From: a virus
Length of the DNA: 15,026 nt
Strand: one strand, 5' to 3'
IMG/VR virus record: IMGVR_UViG_3300045988_095445
How positions within the stretch are numbered: the stretch's first letter is position 1; each line of letters starts with the position of its first letter. The notes beneath the pieces were generated by a model that was not told the DNA's origin, did not search any database, and was given only the letters and a program-made list of their open reading frames with translations. This document shows positions 1,173 through 15,026 of the stretch, in pieces. A program made the position numbers and the translations under genes.

Positions 1173-1335
1173 AATAAGTTCTTTTAGTTAGAAAAAGCGT
1201 TATGATGCTTCTTAAACTAAAATCCTCCTTTTCTTTATCTTATGTATATATTATATTATATTTTTTATATATTGTCGAACCGATCGGGTCTAGATAAAAA
1301 GATCGCTTTAATGGAATCCCGCGGAAAAGATTTTT

Positions 1336-1712
1336 TCTTTTCAAATAGTTAGCAACATCTTTGCTATTGTTTGCTGTATCTTTAATGGTTTTAATTCTGT
1401 GAATATCACGAAATTTTGAAGAAAACGAGGCATTTTTTGCTTATTTTTAAGTAAATTTGTTAGAAAAAACGCGCATTTTTGCAAGATTTTCATTATATTT
1501 TGCGATAACAAGAGGTAAAAGATCGCGGGCCGATCGGTTTATCTAGCTAAAATCTCTATTTTTGAGCTATTTTTATCATAAAATCGTGTTAAACCGATCG
1601 GTTCCGCGAAAGAAATCTCTGGCCGTATTTGTTTTTCATAGCTATATCTTTGCTATTGCTAGTTGTATTTTAGAAAGTTTTGGTACTGTGAATACTTGAC
1701 AATTTTAAGATT
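1336..1712. repeat. Degenerate ~85-bp direct duplication (copy A about 1336-1425, copy B about 1632-1712) sharing ATCTTTGCTATTG...(41 nt)...TGTGAATA. Copy B carries a plus-strand TTGACA-N16-TATAAA promoter-like site at 1695-1722.
   Basis: Identical 13-mer (1357/1646) and 8-mer (1398/1687) at identical spacing. Confidence 0.6.
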
Positions 1713-1900
1713 TTTATTATAAAAAATTGGACGAGAGAGCCAATATTGTTGGACCGATCGGAACTAGATAAAGGAAGAAAAAAAGTAGGGCCGATCGGTA
1801 TTTGGAAGAGGGCGTTATGAATTTCGGGAAAATCGCTATGAAGTTGCGTTATGGCCAAGTTGCTATGAAAATTTTGCGCTATGGTCCGATCGGGGAAATT

Positions 1901-1972
1901 CGGGCCGAGTCGCCCGCGACCGGCCCGCCCAAAATTTTGCATAAAAAAAATCTCCCCTTATGGGGAGATTTT
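1901..1972 (-). terminator. Double intrinsic terminator: a GC hairpin (1901-1927, CGGGCCG...CGGCCCG) followed by hairpin TCTCCCC-TTAT-GGGGAGA (1951-1969) flanked by A- and T-runs, so it is bidirectional.
   Basis: Perfect stems. Same architecture as the intergenic modules further right. Confidence 0.7.
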
Positions 1973-1975
1973 TCT

Positions 1976-2326
1976 TTAGTTGAGAATTATTGGATATGCC
2001 TTGCGAATAACCACCGTAACCATGGCCGGGGGAGTGTCGCACAAGAAACGGTCATTTCTGATAAAACGACCAATTCCCATATTCTGCCACAAAGTCCGGT
2101 TTACATCCTCGTATCGGAGGGTATTATACTTGGAAAGTTTGATATGCCAATCATAGATAAAGCAACCATCTTCCGGCATGGTGTAATCTGGCGCCCGCTT
2201 ATAATTTCTCGTATGTTCCGCGGCTCTGCGCTCAAGATCATTTGTCGTACCAATCTTGAGAATATAGCGCCCCTTTTTGTCGATGTAATGTCCGACATAT
2301 AGGAACTCTTTTCCTCTTGTCTGCAA
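1976..2326 (-). CDS. GIY-YIG family nuclease, small standalone domain of 116 aa.
   Basis: LYVGHY...YILKIGTTNDLERRAAEH matches GIY-(10)-YIG-(x)-R-x3-E/H, with downstream E and N (YEDVN). The track ORF starts at TTG with no good SD, so the start is uncertain. Confidence 0.65.
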   Translation of the reverse strand: MQTRGKEFLYVGHYIDKKGRYILKIGTTNDLERRAAEHTRNYKRAPDYTMPEDGCFIYDWHIKLSKYNTLRYEDVNRTLWQNMGIGRFIRNDRFLCDTPPAMVTVVIRKAYPIILN

Positions 2327-3560: not shown

Positions 3561-3760
3561 ATTTTACCACAAGCAAAAGCAGATTGCAAGCGTCAAATTG
3601 CACAAAAATTGGAATTTTGGGAGAAAGTTTTTGTGCAGAATTTTGCACAAAACGGGGCTGAAATTTTTGTGCAACATTTACAAAGAAAAACTCGGGTCGC
3701 GCCGTTCCTGCGCGACCCGCTCAAATTTTGTATAAAAAAAGAAGGGCCGAAGCCCTTCTT
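3561..3760 (-). promoter_or_regulatory. Intergenic module A. On the minus strand it runs: terminator 1 (3741-3758), GC-hairpin terminator 2 (3693-3719), palindrome TTGTGCA-N6-TGCACAA (3631-3650) plus half-sites TTGCACAA (3598) and TTGTGCAA (3666), then promoter TTGCAA-17-TGgTAAAAT (3561-3589).
   Basis: Read directly. Terminator 1 (AAAAGAAGGGCCGAAGCCCTTCTT) is identical to 6509-6531. Confidence 0.7.
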
Positions 3761-4148: not shown

Positions 4149-4176
4149 GCCGGGCGGGGCTTTAAGCCCCTACCCG
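4149..4176 (-). terminator. Hairpin CCGGGCGGGGCTT-TAA-AGCCCCTACCCGG.
   Basis: Stem GGGGCT/AGCCCC plus an outer CCGGG/CCCGG pairing, immediately downstream of the exonuclease stop. Confidence 0.5.
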
Positions 4177-4986
4177 GATAGTTGGAATTGAACGCATACT
4201 TGCGGAAAGCTGACGCTGAAAATCTGTCATAGGAGGAAATTCTCTCTTATTCTCATACAGAGCCTTTCTCATGGGCTTATGTTGACGCATACAGTACCAC
4301 ATGATTTCCGCCTCAATGAGAACATCTTCAAGCCCCGTATGACTTTCCTCAAAATCGGTATTTCCAGAGATAAACCGCCACACGATTTCCGCAGTCTTAC
4401 GAGGAACGCCATTGGCCTGGATATATCCATTTTCCTGACAGAATTTCTTATAAGTGGGCATATTGCAGATAACATCTTGTGTCATCTTCATAATGTCCCA
4501 AATTTCCACACTGTCAAACGGGAACCAGTAGCGAAACTTAGAGCAAGTGACCCATCGTTGAATGACCCGCAGAGCGTTATCGTCAAACCGGGCATTATAA
4601 GCAGCCACCTCTTTAATGCCGTATCGCTCGATAGTATCAAGCATAGCCTGCCGGATTTCATAGGTTGTAGCCATCTTACGAGTGCCGGCCCGCAATTCCT
4701 CAACATAGCGGGGGATTTTCCAATTATAATAGGCCGTCCGCATTAAATCCCGCTCGTCATTGAAAATGTCCCGATTTACAAAACTTGCAGTTTCGTAAAT
4801 ATTGCCCTTGGTATCTACTACGGCCCAGCCGCAGTCATATACCAGTACATTTGACATATCCATGCGGACACGCTCAGGAGTGATAATCTCCCCATCTTCC
4901 CCGATTTCAGCGGGAACGGTTTCGGTTAGTGTGTTGGCGGTTTCAGTGTCAACCACCAGCACATAATGTCTGCGTTTATCAATCAT
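4162..4986 (-). CDS. DEDDh-family 3'-5' exonuclease (DnaQ/RNase T-like), 274 aa.
   Basis: Exo I VLVVDTETAN, Exo II VAAYNARFDDNAL and Exo III HTGLEDVLIEAEI (H-x4-D) in canonical order. Confidence 0.75.
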   Translation of the reverse strand: MIDKRRHYVLVVDTETANTLTETVPAEIGEDGEIITPERVRMDMSNVLVYDCGWAVVDTKGNIYETASFVNRDIFNDERDLMRTAYYNWKIPRYVEELRAGTRKMATTYEIRQAMLDTIERYGIKEVAAYNARFDDNALRVIQRWVTCSKFRYWFPFDSVEIWDIMKMTQDVICNMPTYKKFCQENGYIQANGVPRKTAEIVWRFISGNTDFEESHTGLEDVLIEAEIMWYCMRQHKPMRKALYENKREFPPMTDFQRQLSASMRSIPTIRVGA

Positions 4987-5211: not shown

Positions 5212-5380
5212 ATAATAATACCATACTTTTGGGAGAATTGCAAGATGGCAAATTGCACAACTTTTTGCCACCAAAATTGTGCAACATCTACAAAGAAAAA
5301 AATTCGGCGCGCCGCGTGCGTCAGCGCGCCGCTCAAATGACAATAAAAAAATACCCCTCTCATTATTGAGAGGGGTATTT
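5212..5380 (-). promoter_or_regulatory. Intergenic module B: terminator hairpin 5353-5378, GC-hairpin terminator 5305-5331 (identical to 6461-6487), TTGCACAA (5253) and TTGTGCAA (5278), promoter TTGCAA-17-TGgTATTAT (5215-5243).
   Basis: Read directly. Confidence 0.7.
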
Positions 5381-5596: not shown

Positions 5597-5622
5597 CGGG
5601 GCGGGGATTTTAACCCCGCCCT
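5597..5622 (-). terminator. Hairpin GGGCGGGG-ATTTTAA-CCCCGCCC. It is a near-copy of the 2806-2830 hairpin.
   Basis: 8-bp GC stem after the stop of gene 5628-6089. Confidence 0.55.
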
Positions 5623-5627
5623 CTTAC

Positions 5628-6089
5628 TCAGTTTAGATTGTTGATATATTCGATTATGTCTGTCTCTCCTGGATTTATTGTATCTCCTAAATGCCAACCG
5701 TGCCTAATTTTATCATTATCATCAAAAAGGATAAACGGCGGTTCATAGAAACTACGGAATACACATTTGGCTTTGGTCGTTCCGTATGCTACACAATGGC
5801 ATTTATGAGCCGGGAATTTATACCTTGCAAGCCATTCCTTTTTAGCGGCTGTGACTGCTTTCTTATATTCGGGAGTGCTTTCGGGCGGTAGCCATGTAAT
5901 TACTCTAATTTCCCATCCGTTATTGATTGCCTTTAGAAGCGCATTTCTAAGAGCTTCCATGTCCCACATAGGGGCCGCGTCTCGGAATGGGGTGGGGTCT
6001 CCATTGCGGAGTTTTTCGAGCCAATTAGGGACTGCATACAAGTCCGCGATAGTTCCATCCATGTCAAAGCAGAGCATTTTTTTAGTCAT
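5628..6089 (-). CDS. HAD-superfamily hydrolase, probably a 5'(3')-deoxyribonucleotidase-like (NT5C family) nucleotidase, 153 aa.
   Basis: Motif I FDMDGTIAD (DxDGT), Ser/Thr motif (VITW), Lys (KKEW) and motif IV FDDND. The start overlaps the upstream gene end. Confidence 0.6.
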   Translation of the reverse strand: MTKKMLCFDMDGTIADLYAVPNWLEKLRNGDPTPFRDAAPMWDMEALRNALLKAINNGWEIRVITWLPPESTPEYKKAVTAAKKEWLARYKFPAHKCHCVAYGTTKAKCVFRSFYEPPFILFDDNDKIRHGWHLGDTINPGETDIIEYINNLN

Positions 6090-6095
6090 TGTATA

Positions 6096-6344
6096 TCAAT
6101 CTCCTTTTGTTTTATTATACCACTTGTTGCCTACCTTGTCAACAAGTTTTTCAAAAAAAGTTTTACGCCGACATACCTTATAAGGTATTGACATATAATC
6201 TACATAGATCAGAGGATCTTGTAAAAGCACAGTCTGTATATAAATCTCATAATTAACCGGGGTAGTAGTATGCCCGAATTGTCTATGATAAATTTCAGCT
6301 ACGGTTAAGTATTCGTTAGGCTGAATAAACTTTGAAGGTTTCAT
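6096..6344 (-). CDS. Hypothetical protein, 82 aa. Its 3' end encodes the promoter and SD for the HAD gene.
   Basis: Strong SD GGAGGGG. TGA stop 6 nt before the HAD ATG. Confidence 0.55.
   Translation of the reverse strand: MKPSKFIQPNEYLTVAEIYHRQFGHTTTPVNYEIYIQTVLLQDPLIYVDYMSIPYKVCRRKTFFEKLVDKVGNKWYNKTKGD
6114..6142 (-). promoter_or_regulatory. Consensus promoter TTGACA-17-TGgTATAAT embedded inside the coding sequence of gene 6096-6344. It drives the HAD gene.
   Basis: -35 at 6137-6142, -10 at 6114-6119, spacer 17. Confidence 0.55.
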
Positions 6345-6371
6345 TTAGTATCCCCTCCTTTTTCTGTACTA

Positions 6372-6531
6372 ATAATACCATAATTTAAGGATAATTGCAA
6401 GATGGCAAATTGCACAAGATTTCAAGACAAAAATTGTGTAGAACTTACAAATAAGAAAACTCGGCGCGCCGCGTGCGTCAGCGCGCCGTCGAATTTTTAG
6501 TATATAAAAAAGAAGGGCCGAAGCCCTTCTT
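6372..6531 (-). promoter_or_regulatory. Intergenic module C: terminator 6512-6529 (same as 3741-3758), GC hairpin 6461-6487 (same as 5305-5331), TTGCACAA (6409), TTGTGTAG (6433), promoter TTGCAA-17-TGgTATTAT (6372-6400).
   Basis: Read directly. Confidence 0.7.
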
Positions 6532-6990
6532 TTATCTTTCAGCCATATTTGAAAAATACCTTGCGACTAGTTTAACCATTTCATGAATAGATTCATCATT
6601 GTGCAAATTTTTGTAACAAATGAATCCAATTTGTCCACCATCAGAAAAAATGGGAGTAATAAACATAGATTTCCACGCTGTCGCAGGTTGGCTGATATTA
6701 CTCCATTCATCTGGTGGTATAGAAATTTTGAAAGAACTAGGCCCGCTTAAAAGTTTATCTGAATCGAAGATTGCCGCGGAAATGTGATTAACAGAAAGGG
6801 CATTTCGCATTTCGTGGGCATGGTCAACGAAAAAAGATAGTGGAGAATATTTCTTGAAGGCTATACAGTCGCCATCAAGAAAAATTTCCATAGGGTCGCC
6901 TTCTCTAATTCGCATACTCCTACGAATTTCTCTAGGAATAACAATACGCCCTAGGTCATCAATATGTCGAACAATACCAACAGCTCTCAT
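6532..6990 (-). CDS. spoVT: SpoVT/AbrB-family regulator. It has an N-terminal swapped-hairpin DNA-binding domain and a SpoVT-like (GAF-type) C-terminal domain, 152 aa.
   Basis: GIVRHIDDLGRIVIPREIRRSMRIREGDPMEIFLDGDCIAFKKYSPLS is near-identical in pattern to B. subtilis SpoVT (GIVRRIDDLGRVVIPKEIRRTLRIREGDPLEIFVD...KKYSPIS). The C-terminal ...PIFSDGGQIGFICY...LVARYFSNMAE resembles SpoVT ...PIVANGDPIGAVVIF...FLARQME. Confidence 0.85.
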   Translation of the reverse strand: MRAVGIVRHIDDLGRIVIPREIRRSMRIREGDPMEIFLDGDCIAFKKYSPLSFFVDHAHEMRNALSVNHISAAIFDSDKLLSGPSSFKISIPPDEWSNISQPATAWKSMFITPIFSDGGQIGFICYKNLHNDESIHEMVKLVARYFSNMAER

Positions 6991-6999
6991 TTTTTTATC

Positions 7000-7033
7000 G
7001 CGGGAGCATAGAATACAAGTCCTATACTCCCGC
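7000..7033 (-). terminator. Weak hairpin GCGGGAG-N20-CTCCCGC between genes 7045-7443 and 6532-6990. It is possibly an attenuator.
   Basis: 7-bp stem with a long loop. No promoter lies between the two genes. Confidence 0.3.
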
Positions 7034-7044
7034 GCCTCCTTTCC

Positions 7045-7443
7045 TTAAAGCGATTTCCGCAGTTCGTCTAGTAGAGTAGACAGAGTTTTCATATCGCCGC
7101 CCATTTCCAGCTTGACACAAATCAGGCTTGCATTTTCCTCTACCCACTTTGTCACAGTGGACAGCTCTTCATCCATCGTTTGATTGATGGGGTTGTAAAG
7201 ACTGCACATATTTGACTTGGCGCACTCCGGGTCATAATAGCGGCGGAGCTTATATCCCTTTGCCGTGGCGCGCTCAATAATCTTTGTATTCAGCGCCTCA
7301 ATCTCTTTCCGGCCTTCCTCGATAAAATCCTCAAACTCTTTCATAGCTCCCGCATACTTGGCTCGGATTTCCTCTCGTTTGGCGTTCGCAATCTTGTTGA
7401 CCTCGTCATTGATATAGGCTTCAATCCTCTTAGTAACACGCAT
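7045..7443 (-). CDS. Hypothetical protein, 132 aa.
   Basis: ORF with TAA stop and the promoter just upstream. Confidence 0.55.
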   Translation of the reverse strand: MRVTKRIEAYINDEVNKIANAKREEIRAKYAGAMKEFEDFIEEGRKEIEALNTKIIERATAKGYKLRRYYDPECAKSNMCSLYNPINQTMDEELSTVTKWVEENASLICVKLEMGGDMKTLSTLLDELRKSL

Positions 7444-7501
7444 TTCTAAAACTCCCTTTCTTATTTTAATTTATTTTTGGGGCTGCCCCTTCCATAGTCT
7501 T

Positions 7502-7530
7502 ATTGTACCACAGAAGGGGCAATTTGTCAA
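7502..7530 (-). promoter_or_regulatory. Promoter TTGACA-17-TGgTACAAT.
   Basis: -35 at 7525-7530, -10 at 7502-7507. Confidence 0.7.
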
Positions 7531-7537
7531 CCCCTTT

Positions 7538-7768
7538 TTACAAGGAAAGTAAATCCATCATAGTCATTTCATCAACCGCCTTATCGGCTTCCTCATCGAA
7601 AATACCCTTGATAATATCGGCCGCGTCATCGGGAGTACATATGCCGATCCGCAGGAATTTCCCCAAAGACTGGAGCATTGCCTGTGCTGCTTCTCCTGGG
7701 CAGAACTCCTCCATGGTCTTATGCAGAAGAATAATCCCCTGTCTATCCTGCTCAGTCATTCTATACAT
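7538..7768 (-). CDS. Hypothetical acidic protein, 76 aa.
   Basis: ORF with TAA stop. Confidence 0.5.
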   Translation of the reverse strand: MYRMTEQDRQGIILLHKTMEEFCPGEAAQAMLQSLGKFLRIGICTPDDAADIIKGIFDEEADKAVDEMTMMDLLSL

Positions 7769-7819
7769 AGCAATATTTCCTTTCTGGTTTAATGAGTTTT
7801 CCTTCTCTTTACATTATTG

Positions 7820-7848
7820 ATTATACCACTGTTTAAGCGGTTTGTCAA
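7820..7848 (-). promoter_or_regulatory. Promoter TTGACA-17-TGgTATAAT.
   Basis: -35 at 7843-7848, -10 at 7820-7825. Confidence 0.7.
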
Positions 7849-7852
7849 CCCT

Positions 7853-7990
7853 TTACATCAAATTTTTTGCCAAATATGCGAACATTAGAATTTCTGCGGC
7901 AAACATGATTTCAAGCCGAATACAGCCTTTTTGAGCAGCCGCCATTAACTGCCATGCAAGGCAGGCCACAAACGCAATCAAAACAATCAT
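7853..7990 (-). CDS. Possible 45-aa hydrophobic peptide (MIVLIAFVACLAWQLMAAAQKGCIRLEIMFAAEILMFAYLAKNLM).
   Basis: ORF below the track cutoff. The SD is 22 nt from the ATG and the ORF lies between a terminator and the next promoter, so it may not be expressed. Confidence 0.2.
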   Translation of the reverse strand: MIVLIAFVACLAWQLMAAAQKGCIRLEIMFAAEILMFAYLAKNLM

Positions 7991-8023
7991 TGTGAAGGTA
8001 GTTATATATATACTCCTTTTCTG

Positions 8024-8050
8024 GTTAAGAGGGTTTATACCCTCTTAACC
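8024..8050 (-). terminator. Hairpin GGTTAAGAGGG-TTTATA-CCCTCTTAACC overlapping the stop of gene 8035-8268.
   Basis: 11-bp perfect stem with the TAA stop in the loop. Confidence 0.55.
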
Positions 8051-8268
8051 TCGATAATCTCCATATCGAAATCTTCCCAATATGCGCCCATGAGAAGGTC
8101 ATGCCGCAAGTCCCCTTCATTCTCATAGTCCATATCTTCCAGAATTTGGCTCCACTCGCTTTCGGAATACTGGGCCTTGAGCCAGTCCCATCCCGCATGG
8201 CGTGCGCCAGTTTCAGTATCAGAAACGCCGATAATCTTTTCTCTACTGTCAGCCATTACCAGATACAT
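8035..8268 (-). CDS. Hypothetical acidic Trp-rich protein, 77 aa.
   Basis: ORF with SD AAAAGGAGA and TAA stop. Confidence 0.55.
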   Translation of the reverse strand: MYLVMADSREKIIGVSDTETGARHAGWDWLKAQYSESEWSQILEDMDYENEGDLRHDLLMGAYWEDFDMEIIEVKRV

Positions 8269-8321
8269 AACTCATTCTCCTTTTGTTTCGAGGGCTTTTG
8301 TTCTCCCCTCTTGATGATACA

Positions 8322-8505
8322 AGTATAACAGATAGCAGATAGAAAGTCAAGCAATTTTGGGAAAAAATCTTCCGTCAGATTGCACAACAATTCGAGCCTA
8401 AAATTGTGCAAATTGCCTCTTGATAAAAAATTCCGGCCGCGCCTGTGGTGCACGGCCGGGCGAACGAATAAAAAAAAAGAACCTCCTGAATTTCAGGAGG
8501 TCATT
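8322..8505 (-). promoter_or_regulatory. Intergenic module D: terminator 8481-8504 (ACCTCCTGA-ATT-TCAGGAGGT), GC hairpin 8433-8459, TTGTGCAA (8404), TTGCACAA (8380), promoter TTGACT-17-TGtTATACT (8322-8350).
   Basis: Read directly. Confidence 0.7.
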
Positions 8506-8543: not shown

Positions 8544-8777
8544 TCAATCGGCATTTTCAACAATCTTTAATCCGTTTGCTTGGATAATTTTCATAGCTTC
8601 TTCAAGCGAGGAATCAACCGATCCGCAGTCGATACAGATATATTTTCTGCCATCTTTTACCATAGTAGTAAAATAGTATTCTTGGCCAGAAACAAGGCCC
8701 ATCTACTCTCGCAGTCTTACTGGAATCATGATACGCCCACTTGAATCTAATTTCCTTGAGAAAGTAGTTTCTTGCAT
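8544..8777 (-). pseudogene. AbrB-fold (swapped-hairpin) gene with one in-frame TAG at 8703-8705. It is either an amber-recoded gene (one 77-residue protein) or a nonsense pseudogene.
   Basis: MQETTFSRKLDSSGRIMIPVRLRE-[TAG]-MGLVSGQEYYFTTMVKDGRKYICID... aligns colinearly with AbrB RKVDELGRVVIPIELRR-T-LGIAEKDALEIYVDD, with the TAG occupying one residue position. There is no SD upstream of the ATG. Stop is TGA at 8544. Confidence 0.55.
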
Positions 8778-9754: not shown

Positions 9755-9955
9755 TAATAACACATGGCAAAAGGAATGTCAAGTAATTTCGGGAGAAAAA
9801 CTTTCGTCGAATTGCACAGACTTTCGGTCATATAATTGTTGAAATTGCCGAATAAATAAAAATTCGGGCCGCGGCGCACGCTGGCGGCCCGGCGAAAAGT
9901 CAATATGGAAAAGTGCATAAAAATGACTGGCAATCTTTGTGTAGATTGCCAGTCA
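9755..9955 (-). promoter_or_regulatory. Intergenic module E: terminator 9925-9953 (11-bp stem), GC hairpin 9865-9891, TTGCACAG (9812), promoter TTGACA-17-TGtTATTAT (9755-9783).
   Basis: Read directly. Confidence 0.7.
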
Positions 9956-11504: not shown

Positions 11505-11570
11505 CTCTTTTGCACAAAATAAATAACATCTTGTTGTGCAGTTTGCACAAATCCTTTACGCGCGCGTATT
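11505..11570 (-). promoter_or_regulatory. Partial module F: TTGCACAA (11510), palindrome TTGTGCA-GTT-TGCACAA (11534-11550) and short GC palindrome TACGCGCGCGTA (11557-11568).
   Basis: Read directly. Confidence 0.55.
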
Positions 11571-11778: not shown

Positions 11779-12188
11779 CCGCATTTACACTTCTTTTTTA
11801 AATTATATATAATATGATATTCTCCACAGACTTTGCCGTCAAACCATACTAATACTTTATCCATCGTCGGTTGCCTCAAAACTAAAAATCAAATTATATC
11901 CATCCTCTAGTTTAATATTAATCGCATCAGATCTCCACATTGTAGGAATATACTCTAGCCTTGGATAACGATTGTTCTGTCAACAATAGTAAAATCAAAA
12001 CTATCCTAATTCTTCGCTCTACAAACTACTCCGCTATCCAATTATGGAATAAGTCTCTATAGAGGCTTATTCCTATATGATATATAAGACCGTCAACTTC
12101 TTTACTTCCCCAATATAACTTTTCCAATAGAAGCATGGGAAACTTGTGCGGCAAGTTTCCCTAGTCTCACCTCGCAATAATTAATTGC

Positions 12189-12640
12189 TTAAAACCTCCA
12201 AGAAAATTCTAAAATTGCGGGAATTGCAAAATAGATATTTGGAATATTATAATTGCGGGCTGCGTTTACGAGCAAGGTGGCGACCGTTGATGGATCTTGC
12301 ATAAAAACACCACAGCCCCAGGCTCCCGCGATTAAATTTTCCACTCCCTTAACCTCGGCAATTCTCTCTTCCATTATCCTATTGTTTAGAGAAAGAGGAA
12401 CTTTACATCAGCTAATTTTATACTATCGTCTTTTTCAAAGACTATAGATAGCTCTATCAAGATATAGGGCTCGATTCAGTCTCTGCCATAAGTATCATCA
12501 AAAGCAAGAAGAATAGGGTAAAGGTTGCTTTCGTGACACAATGCCTCTTCTACCACCTGGATGTATAATTTAAGATCGCAGTCTTGCTCCGATCGGTTAA
12601 ACCGAATAGACAGGATACGCTATCTTGGTCTTTAAGATAA
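12189..12640 (-). pseudogene. Decayed PARG-like macrodomain (DUF2263/TIGR02452-type) gene. Three collinear fragments are broken by TGA, TAA and a frameshift. The track ORF 12189-12374 is the C-terminal fragment.
   Basis: Fragment ...YIQVVEEALCHESNLYPILLAFDDTYGRD*(TGA) resembles the QEE/LCR-S-LY region. Then IEPYILIELSIVFEKDDSIKL* follows, then (frameshift) MEERIAEVKGVENLIAGAWGCGVF... with the GAWGCGVF diphosphate-loop motif. Family assignment is from memory of the motifs. Confidence 0.45.
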
Positions 12641-12713
12641 AAGGTATTATGGTGGGTTTCTCGCGGTTTTTGCAGTTTCCTTTCTTCCGTGCGGTTGGGC
12701 AGAAGTGGATAAT

Positions 12714-12894: not shown

Positions 12895-13248
12895 TTACTC
12901 ATATTTACACCCATTCATTCTACAGTCTATTGTGCATTGCCCTGACGCTCCTTCACAAGGAATAGCATCAGGATAGTATTCAAAATAAGACGAGGTTAAT
13001 AGAACTTCATATCCAAGTTCCCGCAGTATTCTTTCTGCGACATATCTATCTCTTAATTTAATCCATTCTTCTCTATTTACTTTTGTTTCTTCATATATTT
13101 TTCGAGATTCTTCCATATCTATTGTTATGATACCATCGGTGTTAGTTTTAAATACTGAAGGACTTTGTGTATGATAAAATTTTCGAAAGGGATTGTTAAT
13201 ATGAAGAACTTCTTCAGCATATTTGTCAAAATCTCCCGAAAATTTCAT
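12895..13248 (-). CDS. Hypothetical Cys-rich protein, 117 aa (C-terminal CEGASGQCTIDCRMNGC). The true start is ATG 13248, overlapping FolD's TAA (TAATG).
   Basis: The track ORF 12895-13341 is N-terminally over-extended into FolD. It is translationally coupled to FolD. Confidence 0.55.
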   Translation of the reverse strand: MKFSGDFDKYAEEVLHINNPFRKFYHTQSPSVFKTNTDGIITIDMEESRKIYEETKVNREEWIKLRDRYVAERILRELGYEVLLTSSYFEYYPDAIPCEGASGQCTIDCRMNGCKYE

Positions 13249-14033
13249 TATCTTTGCGCCTGTTTCGCTAACTATAAACAATTTTTCATCAACCCCAATC
13301 TTGTTAATAGACCTACTCCTCCGGGGACAGGAGTTGACCATACATTATTTCTTTTTGCGATTTCATCAATTTCTACAAAATCACCAAGAATAATTCCTGC
13401 TTCATTTCTGCGAATACCAACATCTATAACAATAGCGTTAGGACAGGCTTCTCTTGTTAAGCTAAATTTTCCTACCGCAGAGACAATTAAATCTGCTTGC
13501 CTTGTTAAATAGAGTTTTGTATTTATATCTGTTTTGCTATGACATACTGATACGGTCATATTTCTATCCAGTAGAGCTTTAGCCATTGGCTTTCCTACAA
13601 TATCGCTTCTTCCCAAAACAACAGCAGATTTACCTTCGTAGTTAAAACCACATTCATCCAAATAGTCTATAATTCCTCTTACTGTTGCTGGAGTAATATT
13701 GCTCATAGGATTTAAACCATCCGCATCTTTAGAGATAGGTATTTGACTATAATTGAAATCAATTCCATTTGCTACTGGCATTTGAACTATTACCGCATCC
13801 CAGTCTTTCGCATGGCCTAAGAGTAATCTTAACTCTACTGAACTATTCGCTCTAAACACTTCTGCTTCCCAACCAAGAGCATTAAAGTCTTTTATTTTAT
13901 TACGAATATAAATTTGATTTGCGGGATCCTAGGCTGTTGCGTCGATAATCATGAGTGATGGAACATTACCACTAATCTCCCGCAATTTGTTTACCTATTG
14001 TTGAAAATATTCTTTTATATTAATCTATTGCAT
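13248..14033 (-). CDS. folD: FolD (bifunctional methylene-THF dehydrogenase/cyclohydrolase), 261 aa when TAG is read as sense. It has four in-frame TAG codons (14025, 13995, 13929, 13272) and a TAA stop at 13248.
   Basis: The track fragment 13272-13859 shows GKSAVVLGRSDIVGKPMA...VIDVGIRRNE...TPVPGGVGLLT, the canonical FolD C-domain. Upstream in-frame translation continues colinear with the FolD N-terminus (...NVPSLMIIDATA[TAG]DPANQIYIRNKIKDFNALGW) back to ATG 14033 with SD GGAGG. Only TAGs interrupt the frame. Confidence 0.8.
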
Positions 14034-14352
14034 CTGGATCAAGCCTCCAAGGATCACTAGTATCGTAATCAATCATTTCATAGAAAGATATTTCATTTTC
14101 ATTAACTTCTAATACCTAGTGAGGAATACACTATACTTCATAATCAAAATCTTTATTAATATGGTAAGAAGTATATATATGAATAGCAATAGGTCTAGGA
14201 TCATTAACTCCCTAAATATCCCATAAACTTATTGCTTTATTTTGGAAGATTTCCTAAGCATACTATGGAGATATAGCAATACTGATTATTAAGATATTAA
14301 AATAATACTATGCTTTTTCCGGTAAATCTAAATATGGTTCGTCAAAGAACAT
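14020..14352 (-). CDS. Hypothetical protein, 110 aa, with six in-frame TAGs and a TAA stop. It is the first gene of the leftward operon.
   Basis: ATG 14352 with SD AGGAG. 111 codons contain six TAGs and no TAA/TGA. The translation looks protein-like (..DPRPIAIHIYTSYHINKDFDYEV..). Its end overlaps the FolD start. Confidence 0.5.
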
Positions 14353-14454: not shown

Positions 14455-14478
14455 ATGAGTATAAAAGGAGATGACAGT

Positions 14479-15026
14479 ATGATAAAATTAGATTATACTA
14501 TTGAGTCTCCAGAAGAACGGAAGGCGCTTGTCGAAAAAATAATCGCAGAAAATCCGAACCTTAGTTCGAGTTATTTAGAAATATTAGCAGATTATTTAGT
14601 TCTATGTATGGAAAAGCAAGAGAAGAAAGAAAAGAATATATTAACAGATAATAGAATGGCTACTGTTAATAAAAGAGAATGTTCTTTCGAAGGGCTTGCG
14701 TCATAGATGGAAAATGGCGAGGATGGCATTTATGGTTTAATGTCAGAAAATAAAAATGTTATATTTTAGCCAAAGATTTCTATTACACAGAAAGATTTAG
14801 ATACTATACCATGTTTAAAATAGTTGAGAGAAACCATTAATGTCTGGGAGGGCGCTTTAAAACGCGCTGCTGGGACAAAATAGGCATATATGATGAAAAA
14901 AGCATTAATAGAGATGCGAAAAGATTAGTATATCATTAAGCAAGCATATTAGAAACCTATTATACCATGTAAATTAACGAGATCCGTAAGAACTCATATT
15001 CCTCTTGATGATTAGAGTTATCTTAA
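14479..15026 (+). CDS. Partial gene (more than 180 codons, continuing past the window end). It has seven in-frame TAGs and no TAA/TGA.
   Basis: SD AAGGAG 14465-14470 with ATG 14479. The track ORF stops at TAG 14704. The same frame stays open through TAGs at 14704, 14767, 14821, 14881, 14926, 14950 and 15011 to the window end. Confidence 0.55.

What the first reader, a model, noticed from the sequence alone, without database searches (positions are those of the whole stretch)
6532..6990. SpoVT homolog (sporulation stage V regulator) carried on a phage-like element
It is near-identical in motif pattern to B. subtilis SpoVT in both the AbrB N-domain and the GAF-like C-domain. A mobile element encoding a forespore-specific regulator implies a spore-forming host. 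It also suggests manipulation of sporulation or transition-state regulons, for example phage entrapment in spores or hijacking of AbrB/SpoVT-controlled genes.
Basis: established knowledge. Interest (0 to 1): 0.6.

Follow-up and report, generated by a model that had tools for sequence, protein, structure and literature searches.

The report
Shortened SpoVT-like regulator in gut phage
A large tailed phage carries an early-expressed, trimmed-down relative of the bacterial spore-development regulator SpoVT; the homology is real, but this exact protein is already in GenBank under that name, phage spoVT genes have been reported before, and its role in sporulation is still untested.

Summary

The C-domain is not "near-identical". 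It is 19-25% identical, lacks about 22-25 residues and falls far below the curated SpoVT cutoff (94 vs 236 bits). The protein belongs to a separate clade of 145-159 aa proteins (bootstrap 97/100). That clade was found on 85-200 kb viral contigs and not among the best 80 hits in bacterial species-representative genomes.

The element is a genuine phage of about 145-150 kb, with a portal protein and SPbeta-type Yon genes, and it reads TAG as a sense codon.

The gene lies behind a consensus sigma-A promoter, not a forespore promoter. In sibling genomes it is intact, frameshifted or absent, so it is accessory.

The protein is 100% identical to GenBank DAN98126.1 ("stage V sporulation protein T [Caudoviricetes sp.]"). 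spoVT homologs in gut phages were reported in mBio 2023. The host was not identified, and sporulation hijacking remains inference.

The parts
6532..6990 (-). SpoVT-like gene, 152 aa (ATG 6990, TAA 6532-6534); 100% identical to GenBank DAN98126.1
6844..6990 (-). N-terminal AbrB/SpoVT swapped-hairpin DNA-binding domain (residues 1-49); R8, R15, R23 invariant, R24 nearly invariant
   Evidence: mean top-residue frequency 0.84 within the short clade
6535..6843 (-). C-terminal loop-trimmed ('minimal') GAF domain homologous to SpoVT_C (residues 50-152). It keeps the D76-x-D78 and P113..G118..G122 signatures, has a clade-specific (F/Y)P..P(D/E)xW96 motif, and lacks about 22-25 residues of the canonical domain
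6999..7039 (-). Shine-Dalgarno GGAGG (7035-7039) directly followed by a 15-bp hairpin (6999-7034), then 8 A-rich nt and the ATG: a discontinuous ribosome-binding site or other RNA-level control element
   Evidence: Fold energy -26.1 kcal/mol, z -5.3. Invariant in L001-L004. Same layout with an unrelated stem sequence in L009/L010
7045..7443 (-). Upstream ORF of 132 aa with no confident family, apparently co-transcribed; conserved only in the closest relatives, so not a conserved partner
7502..7530 (-). Near-consensus extended -10 sigma-A-type promoter (TTGACA-17-TACAAT preceded by TG) driving the two-gene unit
6456..6533 (-). Two tandem intrinsic-terminator hairpins immediately after the stop codon (GAAGGGC-TTCG-GCCCTTC plus T-run; CGGCGCGC...GCGCGCCG plus T-run)
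   Evidence: second hairpin, 6488-6462; both hairpins fold, -37.9 kcal/mol

Best explanation
The gene encodes a phage-lineage paralog of the sporulation regulator SpoVT. It has an almost unchanged AbrB/SpoVT-type swapped-hairpin DNA-binding domain fused to a loop-trimmed GAF domain. That domain keeps the two long helices and the core beta-sheet, which in SpoVT and other GAF proteins mediate oligomerisation. It has lost a small helix and a roughly 25-residue excursion of the canonical domain.

The gene is transcribed by host sigma-A RNA polymerase as part of the phage's early, host-takeover-type gene block. It is dispensable for the phage, because sibling genomes carry it intact, frameshifted or not at all.

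The most likely mode of action is that the protein oligomerises and occupies the same kind of operators as the host's AbrB/SpoVT-family regulators. It would do so outside the normal sigma-G (forespore) timing and probably without whatever signal the full GAF domain senses. This would shift host transition-state or sporulation gene expression in the phage's favour.

Shown here: homology of both domains, the fold, clade separation, the phage context, promoter type and accessory status. Inferred: oligomerisation, DNA targets, independence from a ligand, and any effect on sporulation.
For: Identity of the protein:
- Best PDB sequence hit is SpoVT, E 1.5e-21.
- Foldseek matches 2w1t_A with TM 0.71.
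- C-domain-only hhalign gives 97.3% probability.
- The signature motifs are retained.

Distinct clade on viral contigs:
- The short forms split from canonical SpoVT with bootstrap 97/100.
- About 40 loci on 85-200 kb viral contigs encode 146-159 aa forms.
- None of the best 80 hits in GTDB genomes is a short form.
- Conserved, co-oriented synteny with a HAD-type nucleotidase and the P274, P136 and P105 genes.

Genuine phage: portal protein and YonB/YonD/YonG genes on a sibling genome; NCBI labels the record Caudoviricetes.

Early sigma-A expression: consensus promoter at 7530-7502. Distant homologs have their own TTGACA...TGnTAnAAT promoter directly upstream.

Accessory gene: a 1-nt deletion in L001-L004; the cassette is absent in L167.

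The DNA-binding domain is under strong constraint towards the host-like sequence (top-residue frequency 0.84 vs 0.43 for the C-domain). This fits recognition of host-type operators.

Literature: SpoVT needs tetramerisation, its GAF ligand is unknown, and it is sigma-G dependent (PMC5061766). spoVT and abrB homologs are enriched in gut phages of spore-formers, and phage spo0A homologs are likewise truncated to the DNA-binding part (PMC10294663).
Against: - No functional data of any kind.
- The host is unidentified, so a sporulating host is not shown.
- No consensus binding site is known for SpoVT (PMC5061766), so host or phage targets cannot be predicted.
- Conserved synteny across about 40 phages could equally indicate a role in the phage's own programme.
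- The nearest cultured-phage relatives of a conserved neighbouring gene infect Enterococcus, which does not sporulate.
- The statement about trimmed loops and lost ligand control rests on comparing two AlphaFold models, not on experimental structures.
Confidence: 0.45

Rival explanations
1. It regulates the phage, not the host: an AbrB-type repressor or activator that times phage early or middle transcription by binding phage promoters.
For: It sits in the early region among many promoter/terminator cassettes. It is conserved in position across about 40 related phages. Small AbrB-type regulators are common in phage genomes (phrog_4681).
Against: The gene is frameshifted in four independent assemblies and its cassette is absent from a sibling genome 94-99% identical in the flanks. 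An essential timing regulator is therefore unlikely. The only strongly enriched candidate operator (TTGCACAA/TTGTGCAA, 12 found vs 0.58 expected) is equally enriched in the genome lacking the gene, and it is absent from distant phages that have the gene.
Confidence: 0.22
2. It is a dominant-negative subunit. Through the conserved swapped-hairpin domain and/or the retained GAF helices it forms mixed oligomers with host AbrB/Abh/SpoVT and inactivates them, instead of binding DNA as a homo-oligomer.
For: The N-domain is about 71% identical to SpoVT and about 52% identical to AbrB. The long GAF helices are retained while the loops are trimmed. A clade-specific conserved (F/Y)P..P(D/E)xW motif could be a new interaction surface.
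Against: The DNA-contacting arginines are invariant or nearly so across the clade. That would not be needed for a pure poison subunit. Nothing tested here bears on hetero-oligomers.
Confidence: 0.15
3. It is the antitoxin of a type II toxin-antitoxin pair (MazE/AbrB-fold antitoxin), as the PHROG label suggests.
For: PF04014 MazE_antitoxin hit; phrog_4681 and phrog_36746 are labelled 'antitoxin'.
Against: Those hits cover only residues 1-62, which is the shared fold. There is no toxin-family domain in either neighbour. The upstream ORF is not a conserved partner. The downstream gene lies beyond two terminators and has its own promoter. The C-terminal half is a folded GAF domain, not a short toxin-binding tail.
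Confidence: 0.04
4. It is a decaying remnant of a host spoVT captured by chance, with no function.
For: Shortened C-domain; frameshifted or absent alleles in siblings.
Against: It belongs to a deep, diverse clade (33-66% identity) with conserved length, motifs and synteny. The fold is predicted with high confidence, pLDDT 92-97 in the C-domain. The identical protein was seen on 251 contigs. All three substitutions downstream of the frameshift are synonymous in the original frame.
Confidence: 0.03

Closest known systems
SpoVT of endospore-forming Bacillota (B. subtilis SpoVT, PDB 2w1t/2w1r; TIGR02851; PF04014+PF15714)
   Same: Same two-domain architecture: a swapped-hairpin DNA-binding domain with the same arginines, plus a GAF-like C-domain with the D-x-D and P-I-I-x-(D/E)-G-(D/E)-x-I-G signatures. 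It is the best sequence and structure match.
   Different: 152 vs about 178-185 aa. It lacks a small helix and a roughly 25-residue excursion of the GAF domain. It scores 94 vs the required 236 bits and has no PF15714 hit. It forms a separate clade. It is encoded by a phage and sits behind a sigma-A-type promoter, whereas SpoVT is sigma-G dependent (PMC5061766).
AbrB / Abh transition-state regulators
   Same: Homologous N-terminal DNA-binding domain (E about 5e-12; 52% identity) and tetramer-dependent DNA binding as a family trait (PMC5061766).
   Different: AbrB and Abh are proteins of about 94 aa with a small C-terminal oligomerisation domain (my knowledge of the family, not tested here). 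This protein has a GAF-type C-domain and is closer to SpoVT in the N-domain as well.
Phage-carried homologs of sporulation regulators (Schwartz et al., mBio 2023, PMC10294663): spo0A, sigF/sigG, spoVT, abrB
   Same: Same category: a sporulation transcription-factor homolog on a phage. That paper lists spoVT (K04769) explicitly. Its phage spo0A homologs are also trimmed versions that keep the DNA-binding part.
   Different: That work identifies spoVT only at KEGG-ortholog level. The shortened GAF domain, the clade on large viral contigs, its synteny and its promoter type are, as far as I could find, not described.
Small phage AbrB-type proteins (phrog_4681; e.g. Bacillus phage phBC6A51, Paenibacillus and Brevibacillus phage 'AbrB family' regulators)
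   Same: Share the N-terminal domain (47-65% identity over residues 1-50/65).
   Different: Those are single-domain proteins of about 80-110 aa. None of the 63 phage records covers 80% or more of this protein.
GAF domain of CodY and other small-molecule-sensing GAF domains
   Different: Only 6-20% identity. Here the domain is reduced to about 100 residues with the loops trimmed. Whether any pocket remains is unknown.

Membership tests
SpoVT (stage V sporulation protein T) | N-terminal AbrB-type swapped-hairpin DNA-binding domain with conserved Arg residues | tested here: met
   PF04014 33.6 bits, TIGR01439 39.5 bits, SpoVT N-domain 2ro5 E 7e-19; R8, R15, R23 invariant and R24 nearly invariant
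SpoVT (stage V sporulation protein T) | C-terminal GAF-like domain homologous to SpoVT_C | tested here: met
SpoVT (stage V sporulation protein T) | Scores as an equivalog: TIGR02851 at or above 235.9 bits, PF15714 detectable, full-length domain of about 178-185 aa | tested here: not met
   94.2 bits, aligned only over residues 2-82; no PF15714 hit; about 22-25 residues missing
SpoVT (stage V sporulation protein T) | Forespore-specific, sigma-G-dependent expression | tested here: not met
   Sequence level only. A consensus extended -10 sigma-A promoter lies at 7530-7502 and there is no strict sigma-G/F consensus upstream. Homologs have sigma-A-type promoters. The sigma-G dependence of SpoVT comes from PMC5061766
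SpoVT (stage V sporulation protein T) | Chromosomal gene of an endospore-forming bacterium | tested here: not met
   Encoded on a phage genome; no short-clade member among the best 80 GTDB hits
SpoVT (stage V sporulation protein T) | Tetramerisation and DNA binding; control of sigma-G regulon genes | not testable with these tools
   Needs biochemistry and genetics
AbrB/Abh transition-state regulators | Short protein of about 94 aa with an AbrB-type C-terminal oligomerisation domain | tested here: not met
   152 aa with a GAF-fold C-domain. The N-domain is closer to SpoVT (E 1.5e-21) than to AbrB (about 5e-12). The AbrB length and domain layout are from my knowledge of the family
MazE/AbrB-fold type II antitoxins | Adjacent, co-transcribed cognate toxin gene | tested here: not met
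   No toxin-family hit in the neighbours; the upstream ORF is not conserved with it; the downstream gene is separated by two terminators
GAF-domain ligand sensors | GAF fold | tested here: met
GAF-domain ligand sensors | Intact ligand-binding pocket or a known ligand | tested here: inconclusive
   Model comparison shows trimmed loops. No ligand is known even for SpoVT itself (PMC5061766)
Phage-carried sporulation-regulator homologs (PMC10294663) | Homolog of a sporulation transcription factor encoded on a bona fide phage genome | tested here: met
   homology; phage: IMG/VR contig, Caudoviricetes record, portal protein
Phage-carried sporulation-regulator homologs (PMC10294663) | Host is a spore-forming bacterium | tested here: inconclusive
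   Bacterial relatives are all Bacillota, but FolD and portal searches returned only unnamed phage-size contigs

The most novel reading that the evidence does not exclude
A 'minimal-GAF' SpoVT lineage, found so far only on viral contigs and conserved across a broad clade of 85-200 kb phages (the window's own lineage reads TAG as sense), acts as a signal-independent mimic or poison of the host AbrB/SpoVT regulators. Expressed from the first minutes of infection, it would let these phages block or reprogram sporulation or germination in gut Bacillota. As a natural loop-deletion series it would also show what the never-identified SpoVT GAF ligand pocket is for.
Probability: 0.2. Interest if true: 0.65.

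Novelty: new variant of a known kind. Interest (0 to 1): 0.35.

Why it matters
Spore formation governs persistence and transmission of many gut Bacillota, and phages are suspected of tampering with it. A SpoVT-like regulator that is widespread on phages, expressed early, and stripped of part of its sensor domain is a concrete, clonable candidate for such tampering. It also gives a natural handle on the unresolved question of what the SpoVT GAF domain senses.

The basic fact is not new. The identical protein is already in GenBank, annotated as SpoVT of a Caudoviricetes phage, and spoVT homologs in gut phages were reported in 2023. The added value here is three points: the shortened architecture, the separate clade on viral contigs, and the sigma-A rather than forespore-type promoter.

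Tried and rejected
- **DNA match to cultured phages:** a megablast of the whole window against 50,697 phage records found nothing.
- **Genetic code from ORF coverage:** six-frame ORF coverage under alternative codes did not discriminate in this AT-rich DNA. I replaced it with homology-based evidence.
- **Suppressor tRNA:** no tRNA in the window or its close relatives' loci, so the suppressor must lie elsewhere in the genome or was not captured.
- **Rfam:** no family at gathering threshold.
- **Host inference:** the phage FolD and portal proteins returned only unnamed contigs of 152 kb or less. P274 gave only distant (about 38%) Enterococcus-phage relatives.
- **Candidate operator:** I tested whether the enriched TTGCACAA...TTGTGCAA inverted repeats in the promoter modules are this protein's operator. 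I rejected this because the motif does not co-vary with the gene's presence.
- **Toxin-antitoxin reading:** rejected, because there is no toxin and no conserved partner.
- **Recent capture of host spoVT:** rejected, because of the deep separate clade.
- **Sigma-G/F promoter scan:** found nothing, but the expected count is about 0.01, so the absence alone says little.
- **C-domain single-sequence search:** reached only the immediate subclade, 11 hits.

Full report
**1. The observation**

The ORF listing reports a 152-aa ORF at 6532-6990 on the minus strand. It starts with ATG, ends with TAA and contains no in-frame TAG.

The N-terminal 50 residues are a textbook AbrB/SpoVT swapped-hairpin domain:
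- Pfam MazE_antitoxin scores 33.6 bits and NCBIfam AbrB-domain TIGR01439 scores 39.5 bits, both above their cutoffs.
- The best solved-structure match is B. subtilis SpoVT (2w1t, E 1.5e-21). The alignment runs through residue 82, which is into the second domain.
- AbrB and Abh score about ten orders of magnitude worse.
- From that alignment I count 37/52 identities in the N-domain.

The C-terminal half is much weaker by sequence:
- Pfam gives a sub-threshold GAF_2 hit (E 0.05) and no SpoVT_C hit.
- The curated SpoVT equivalog model TIGR02851 scores 94 bits against a 236-bit cutoff.

**2. Is the C-terminal half really SpoVT-like?**

Yes, but it is divergent and shorter.

The large protein search returned two tiers. 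The first is a set of 145-156 aa proteins carrying only PF04014. Below it are thousands of canonical proteins of about 180 aa carrying PF04014 plus PF15714, at 34-43% identity and up to 100% query coverage.

In a joint alignment the short proteins align end to end with canonical SpoVT, except for a gap of about 20-25 residues in the C-domain.

I cut off the DNA-binding domain and compared C-domain profiles only. That gave 97.3% probability, E 1.7e-11 and 19% identity.

An AlphaFold2 model built on the alignment is confident: mean pLDDT 90, and 92-97 across the C-domain.
- Foldseek's top hit is full-length SpoVT 2w1t_A (E 3.5e-10, TM 0.71), followed by AbrB N-domains and generic GAF domains.

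I modelled a canonical SpoVT from the hit list (P0086) with the same pipeline and laid both DSSP strings on one alignment.
- The phage protein keeps the long N-terminal GAF helix, the core strands and the C-terminal helix.
- It lacks the small helix after beta-2 and the roughly 25-residue excursion between beta-3 and beta-4.
- Helix alpha-2 is shortened.

The SpoVT_C signature positions (D76-x-D78; P113-I-I-x-D/E-G-D/E-x-I-G122) are shared. The canonical invariant A-V-S-G and S...E motifs are replaced by a clade-specific (F/Y)-P...P-(D/E)-x-W.

A single-sequence search with the C-domain alone found only 11 proteins among 1.84 billion representatives, and none was a canonical SpoVT. So 'near-identical motif pattern' is true of the N-domain only. 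For context, even genuine SpoVT homologs share only 20-30% identity in this domain, and no ligand has been found (PMC5061766).

**3. A separate clade found on viral contigs**

A neighbour-joining tree with pairwise gap deletion, so that the deletion itself is not a character, splits the 27 short forms from the 26 canonical forms with 97/100 bootstrap support.

Scanning IMG/VR with a short-clade profile found 417 relatives. One is a 100% identical copy on a 98 kb viral contig (L008). About 40 loci encode 146-159 aa forms, mostly on viral contigs of 85-200 kb.

The same scan of 185,579 species-representative genomes returned only hits of 40% identity or less over most of the protein's length, all in Bacillota. 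Classifying the best 80 by ORF length gave 69 canonical, 10 over-extended, and one 161-aa ORF with the canonical motif pattern. None was a short-clade member and none showed the phage synteny.

Within the phages the gene lies in a conserved, co-oriented block. The block contains a HAD-type nucleotidase (window 5628-6089), a 274-aa phrog_20187 protein (4162-4986), and 136-aa and 105-aa proteins.

**4. The element is a real phage, and this protein is already public**

The query's 90% cluster contains P0255. This is GenBank DAN98126.1, 'MAG TPA: stage V sporulation protein T [Caudoviricetes sp.]'. It has been seen on 251 contigs of up to 149.8 kb and is 152/152 identical to the window's protein.

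I walked from the phage FolD gene on a sibling genome (L167). Across a divergent junction lie YonB, YonD_N and YonG_N domain proteins, a portal protein (phrog_2739, E 1.5e-80) and a 'sigma factor' family protein (phrog_5767). The N-terminus of that last protein is window 14455-15026 on the plus strand.

Portal homologs at 63% identity or more all sit on contigs of 152 kb or less. That fits a genome of about 145-150 kb and gives no sign of chromosomal integration.

The conserved P274 protein has homologs of about 38% identity in the 134-142 kb Enterococcus phages and in the gut phage Phass-1.

Schwartz et al. (mBio 2023, PMC10294663) already list spoVT (K04769) and abrB among regulatory sporulation homologs enriched in phages of spore-forming hosts. 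They propose manipulation of sporulation.

**5. Expression signals and dispensability**

On the minus strand a near-consensus extended -10 sigma-A promoter (TTGACA-17-TACAAT with a TG, 7530-7502) precedes a 132-aa ORF (7045-7443) and then the SpoVT-like gene. Two strong terminator hairpins follow the stop codon.

Seven exact TTGACA/T...TGnTAnAAT promoters occur on this strand of the window. In more distant phages the homolog has such a promoter directly upstream.

I found no strict sigma-G or sigma-F consensus, but that absence is weak evidence on its own.

Between the Shine-Dalgarno sequence and the ATG lies a 15-bp hairpin (-26.1 kcal/mol, z -5.3). L009 and L010, at 54% protein identity, have the same layout with an unrelated stem sequence. 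So the structure is conserved rather than the sequence.

The gene is accessory:
- Four independent assemblies about 95% identical to the window share a 1-nt deletion at codon 118. All three downstream substitutions are synonymous in the original frame.
- In L167 the whole block of about 2.8 kb (window about 5600-8380) is replaced by about 0.56 kb.

**6. Mechanism and rivals**

The combination of features points to a host-directed mimic of AbrB/SpoVT-type regulators. The features are a host-like DNA-binding domain under strong constraint (top-residue frequency 0.84 vs 0.43 for the C-domain), retained oligomerisation helices, trimmed sensor loops, early sigma-A expression, and dispensability. 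Such a mimic would act outside the forespore timing of genuine SpoVT. This is inference, and I give it about 0.45.

The phage-regulator rival was tested through the one strongly enriched motif, TTGCACAA/TTGTGCAA (12 found vs 0.58 expected). The motif is equally enriched in the sibling that lacks the gene, and it is absent from distant phages that have the gene. That weakens this rival but does not eliminate it.

A dominant-negative subunit is possible and untested.

A toxin-antitoxin role is rejected. There is no toxin and no conserved partner, terminators separate the downstream gene, and the C-terminal half is a folded GAF domain.

A decaying remnant is rejected because of the clade's depth and conservation.

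**7. Side observation that affects reading the window**

TAG is a sense codon in this phage.
- The FolD alignments to solved structures run without a break through all four in-frame TAGs.
- Late genes on the sibling genome carry 8-14 in-frame TAGs each and no in-frame TGA or TAA.
- My TAG-to-Q translation of FolD is 99% identical to the database's own call.

Most early-block genes, including the SpoVT-like gene, have no in-frame TAG.

**8. Verdict**

This is a genuine but already catalogued phage-borne SpoVT homolog. What is added here is that it represents a distinct, shortened lineage found on viral contigs, and that it has early, vegetative-type expression signals. The proposed effect on sporulation and the spore-forming host remain unproven.

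Noticed in passing
window 13245-14055 (-), 8544-8777 (-), 14455-15026 (+); L167:532-9555: TAG is read as a sense codon (probably Gln, as in genetic code 15). FolD has 4 in-frame TAGs inside conserved core. Late genes on the sibling genome (portal, a 581-aa protein, YonG-like, sigma-factor-like) have 8-14 each and no in-frame TGA or TAA. Most early-block genes have none. No suppressor tRNA was found in the loci available.
   Followed up: partly
window 8544-8777 (-): A second, small AbrB/MraZ-like ORF of 77 aa (MQETTFSRKLDSSGRIMIPVRLRE[TAG]MGLVSGQEYYF...) appears only when TAG is translated. Its Pfam hits are just below threshold (MraZ 21.4 vs 23 bits; MazE 19 vs 24.7). It is conserved in about 10 related phage loci.
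   Followed up: partly
L001-L004:10001-10546 (equivalent to window about 6640); L167:16227-16784: The SpoVT-like gene is polymorphic within one phage species. It is intact in the window and on 251 contigs, carries a 1-nt deletion (GATGGTGG to GATGGGG) in four independent assemblies, and is absent together with about 2.8 kb of neighbouring cassettes in L167.
   Followed up: yes
window 3593-3740, 5213-5338, 6370-6490, 8376-8466, 9808-9898, 11505-11555 (minus strand modules): Repeated intergenic modules consist of tandem terminator hairpins, an inverted repeat TTGCACAA-N16-TTGTGCAA and a promoter. The 8-mer occurs 12 times vs 0.58 expected. It is also enriched in related phages, including one without the SpoVT-like gene. 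Its binding factor is unknown. The repeats may also serve as recombination points for cassette exchange.
   Followed up: partly
window 6999-7039 (-); L009 and L010 about 7960-8000: A Shine-Dalgarno sequence is followed directly by a stable 13-15 bp hairpin, then 8-10 A-rich nt and the ATG of the SpoVT-like gene. The structure is conserved in 54%-identical homologs although the stem sequence is unrelated. It may be a discontinuous RBS or a processing or translation-control element.
   Followed up: partly
window 1173-1975 (and 586, 12589): The palindrome CCGATCGG occurs 8 times vs 0.13 expected. Six copies are clustered in a 0.8 kb stretch with no convincing ORF. This could be an origin, iteron, partition or protein-binding array.
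   Followed up: no
window about 11926-12693 (-): The PARG-like macrodomain gene is intact (255 aa) in sibling genomes but broken across frames and partly deleted in the window (75% identity with 12 gaps). The adjacent PTH2-like gene also appears disrupted.
   Followed up: partly
window 14455-15026 (+): This is the N-terminus of a 348-aa protein matching phage 'sigma factor' family phrog_5767 (E 1.5e-38, measured on the sibling copy). It is transcribed divergently from the early block and heads the SPbeta-like Yon/portal late module.
   Followed up: partly
window 4162-4986 (-), 5628-6089 (-), 1976-2326 (-): Conserved neighbours are a 274-aa phrog_20187 protein (annotated exodeoxyribonuclease in Enterococcus phage H1), a HAD-type 5'-3' deoxyribonucleotidase-like protein, and a T5orf172-domain protein. 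The first two co-occur with the SpoVT-like gene in about 47-49 viral loci.
   Followed up: partly
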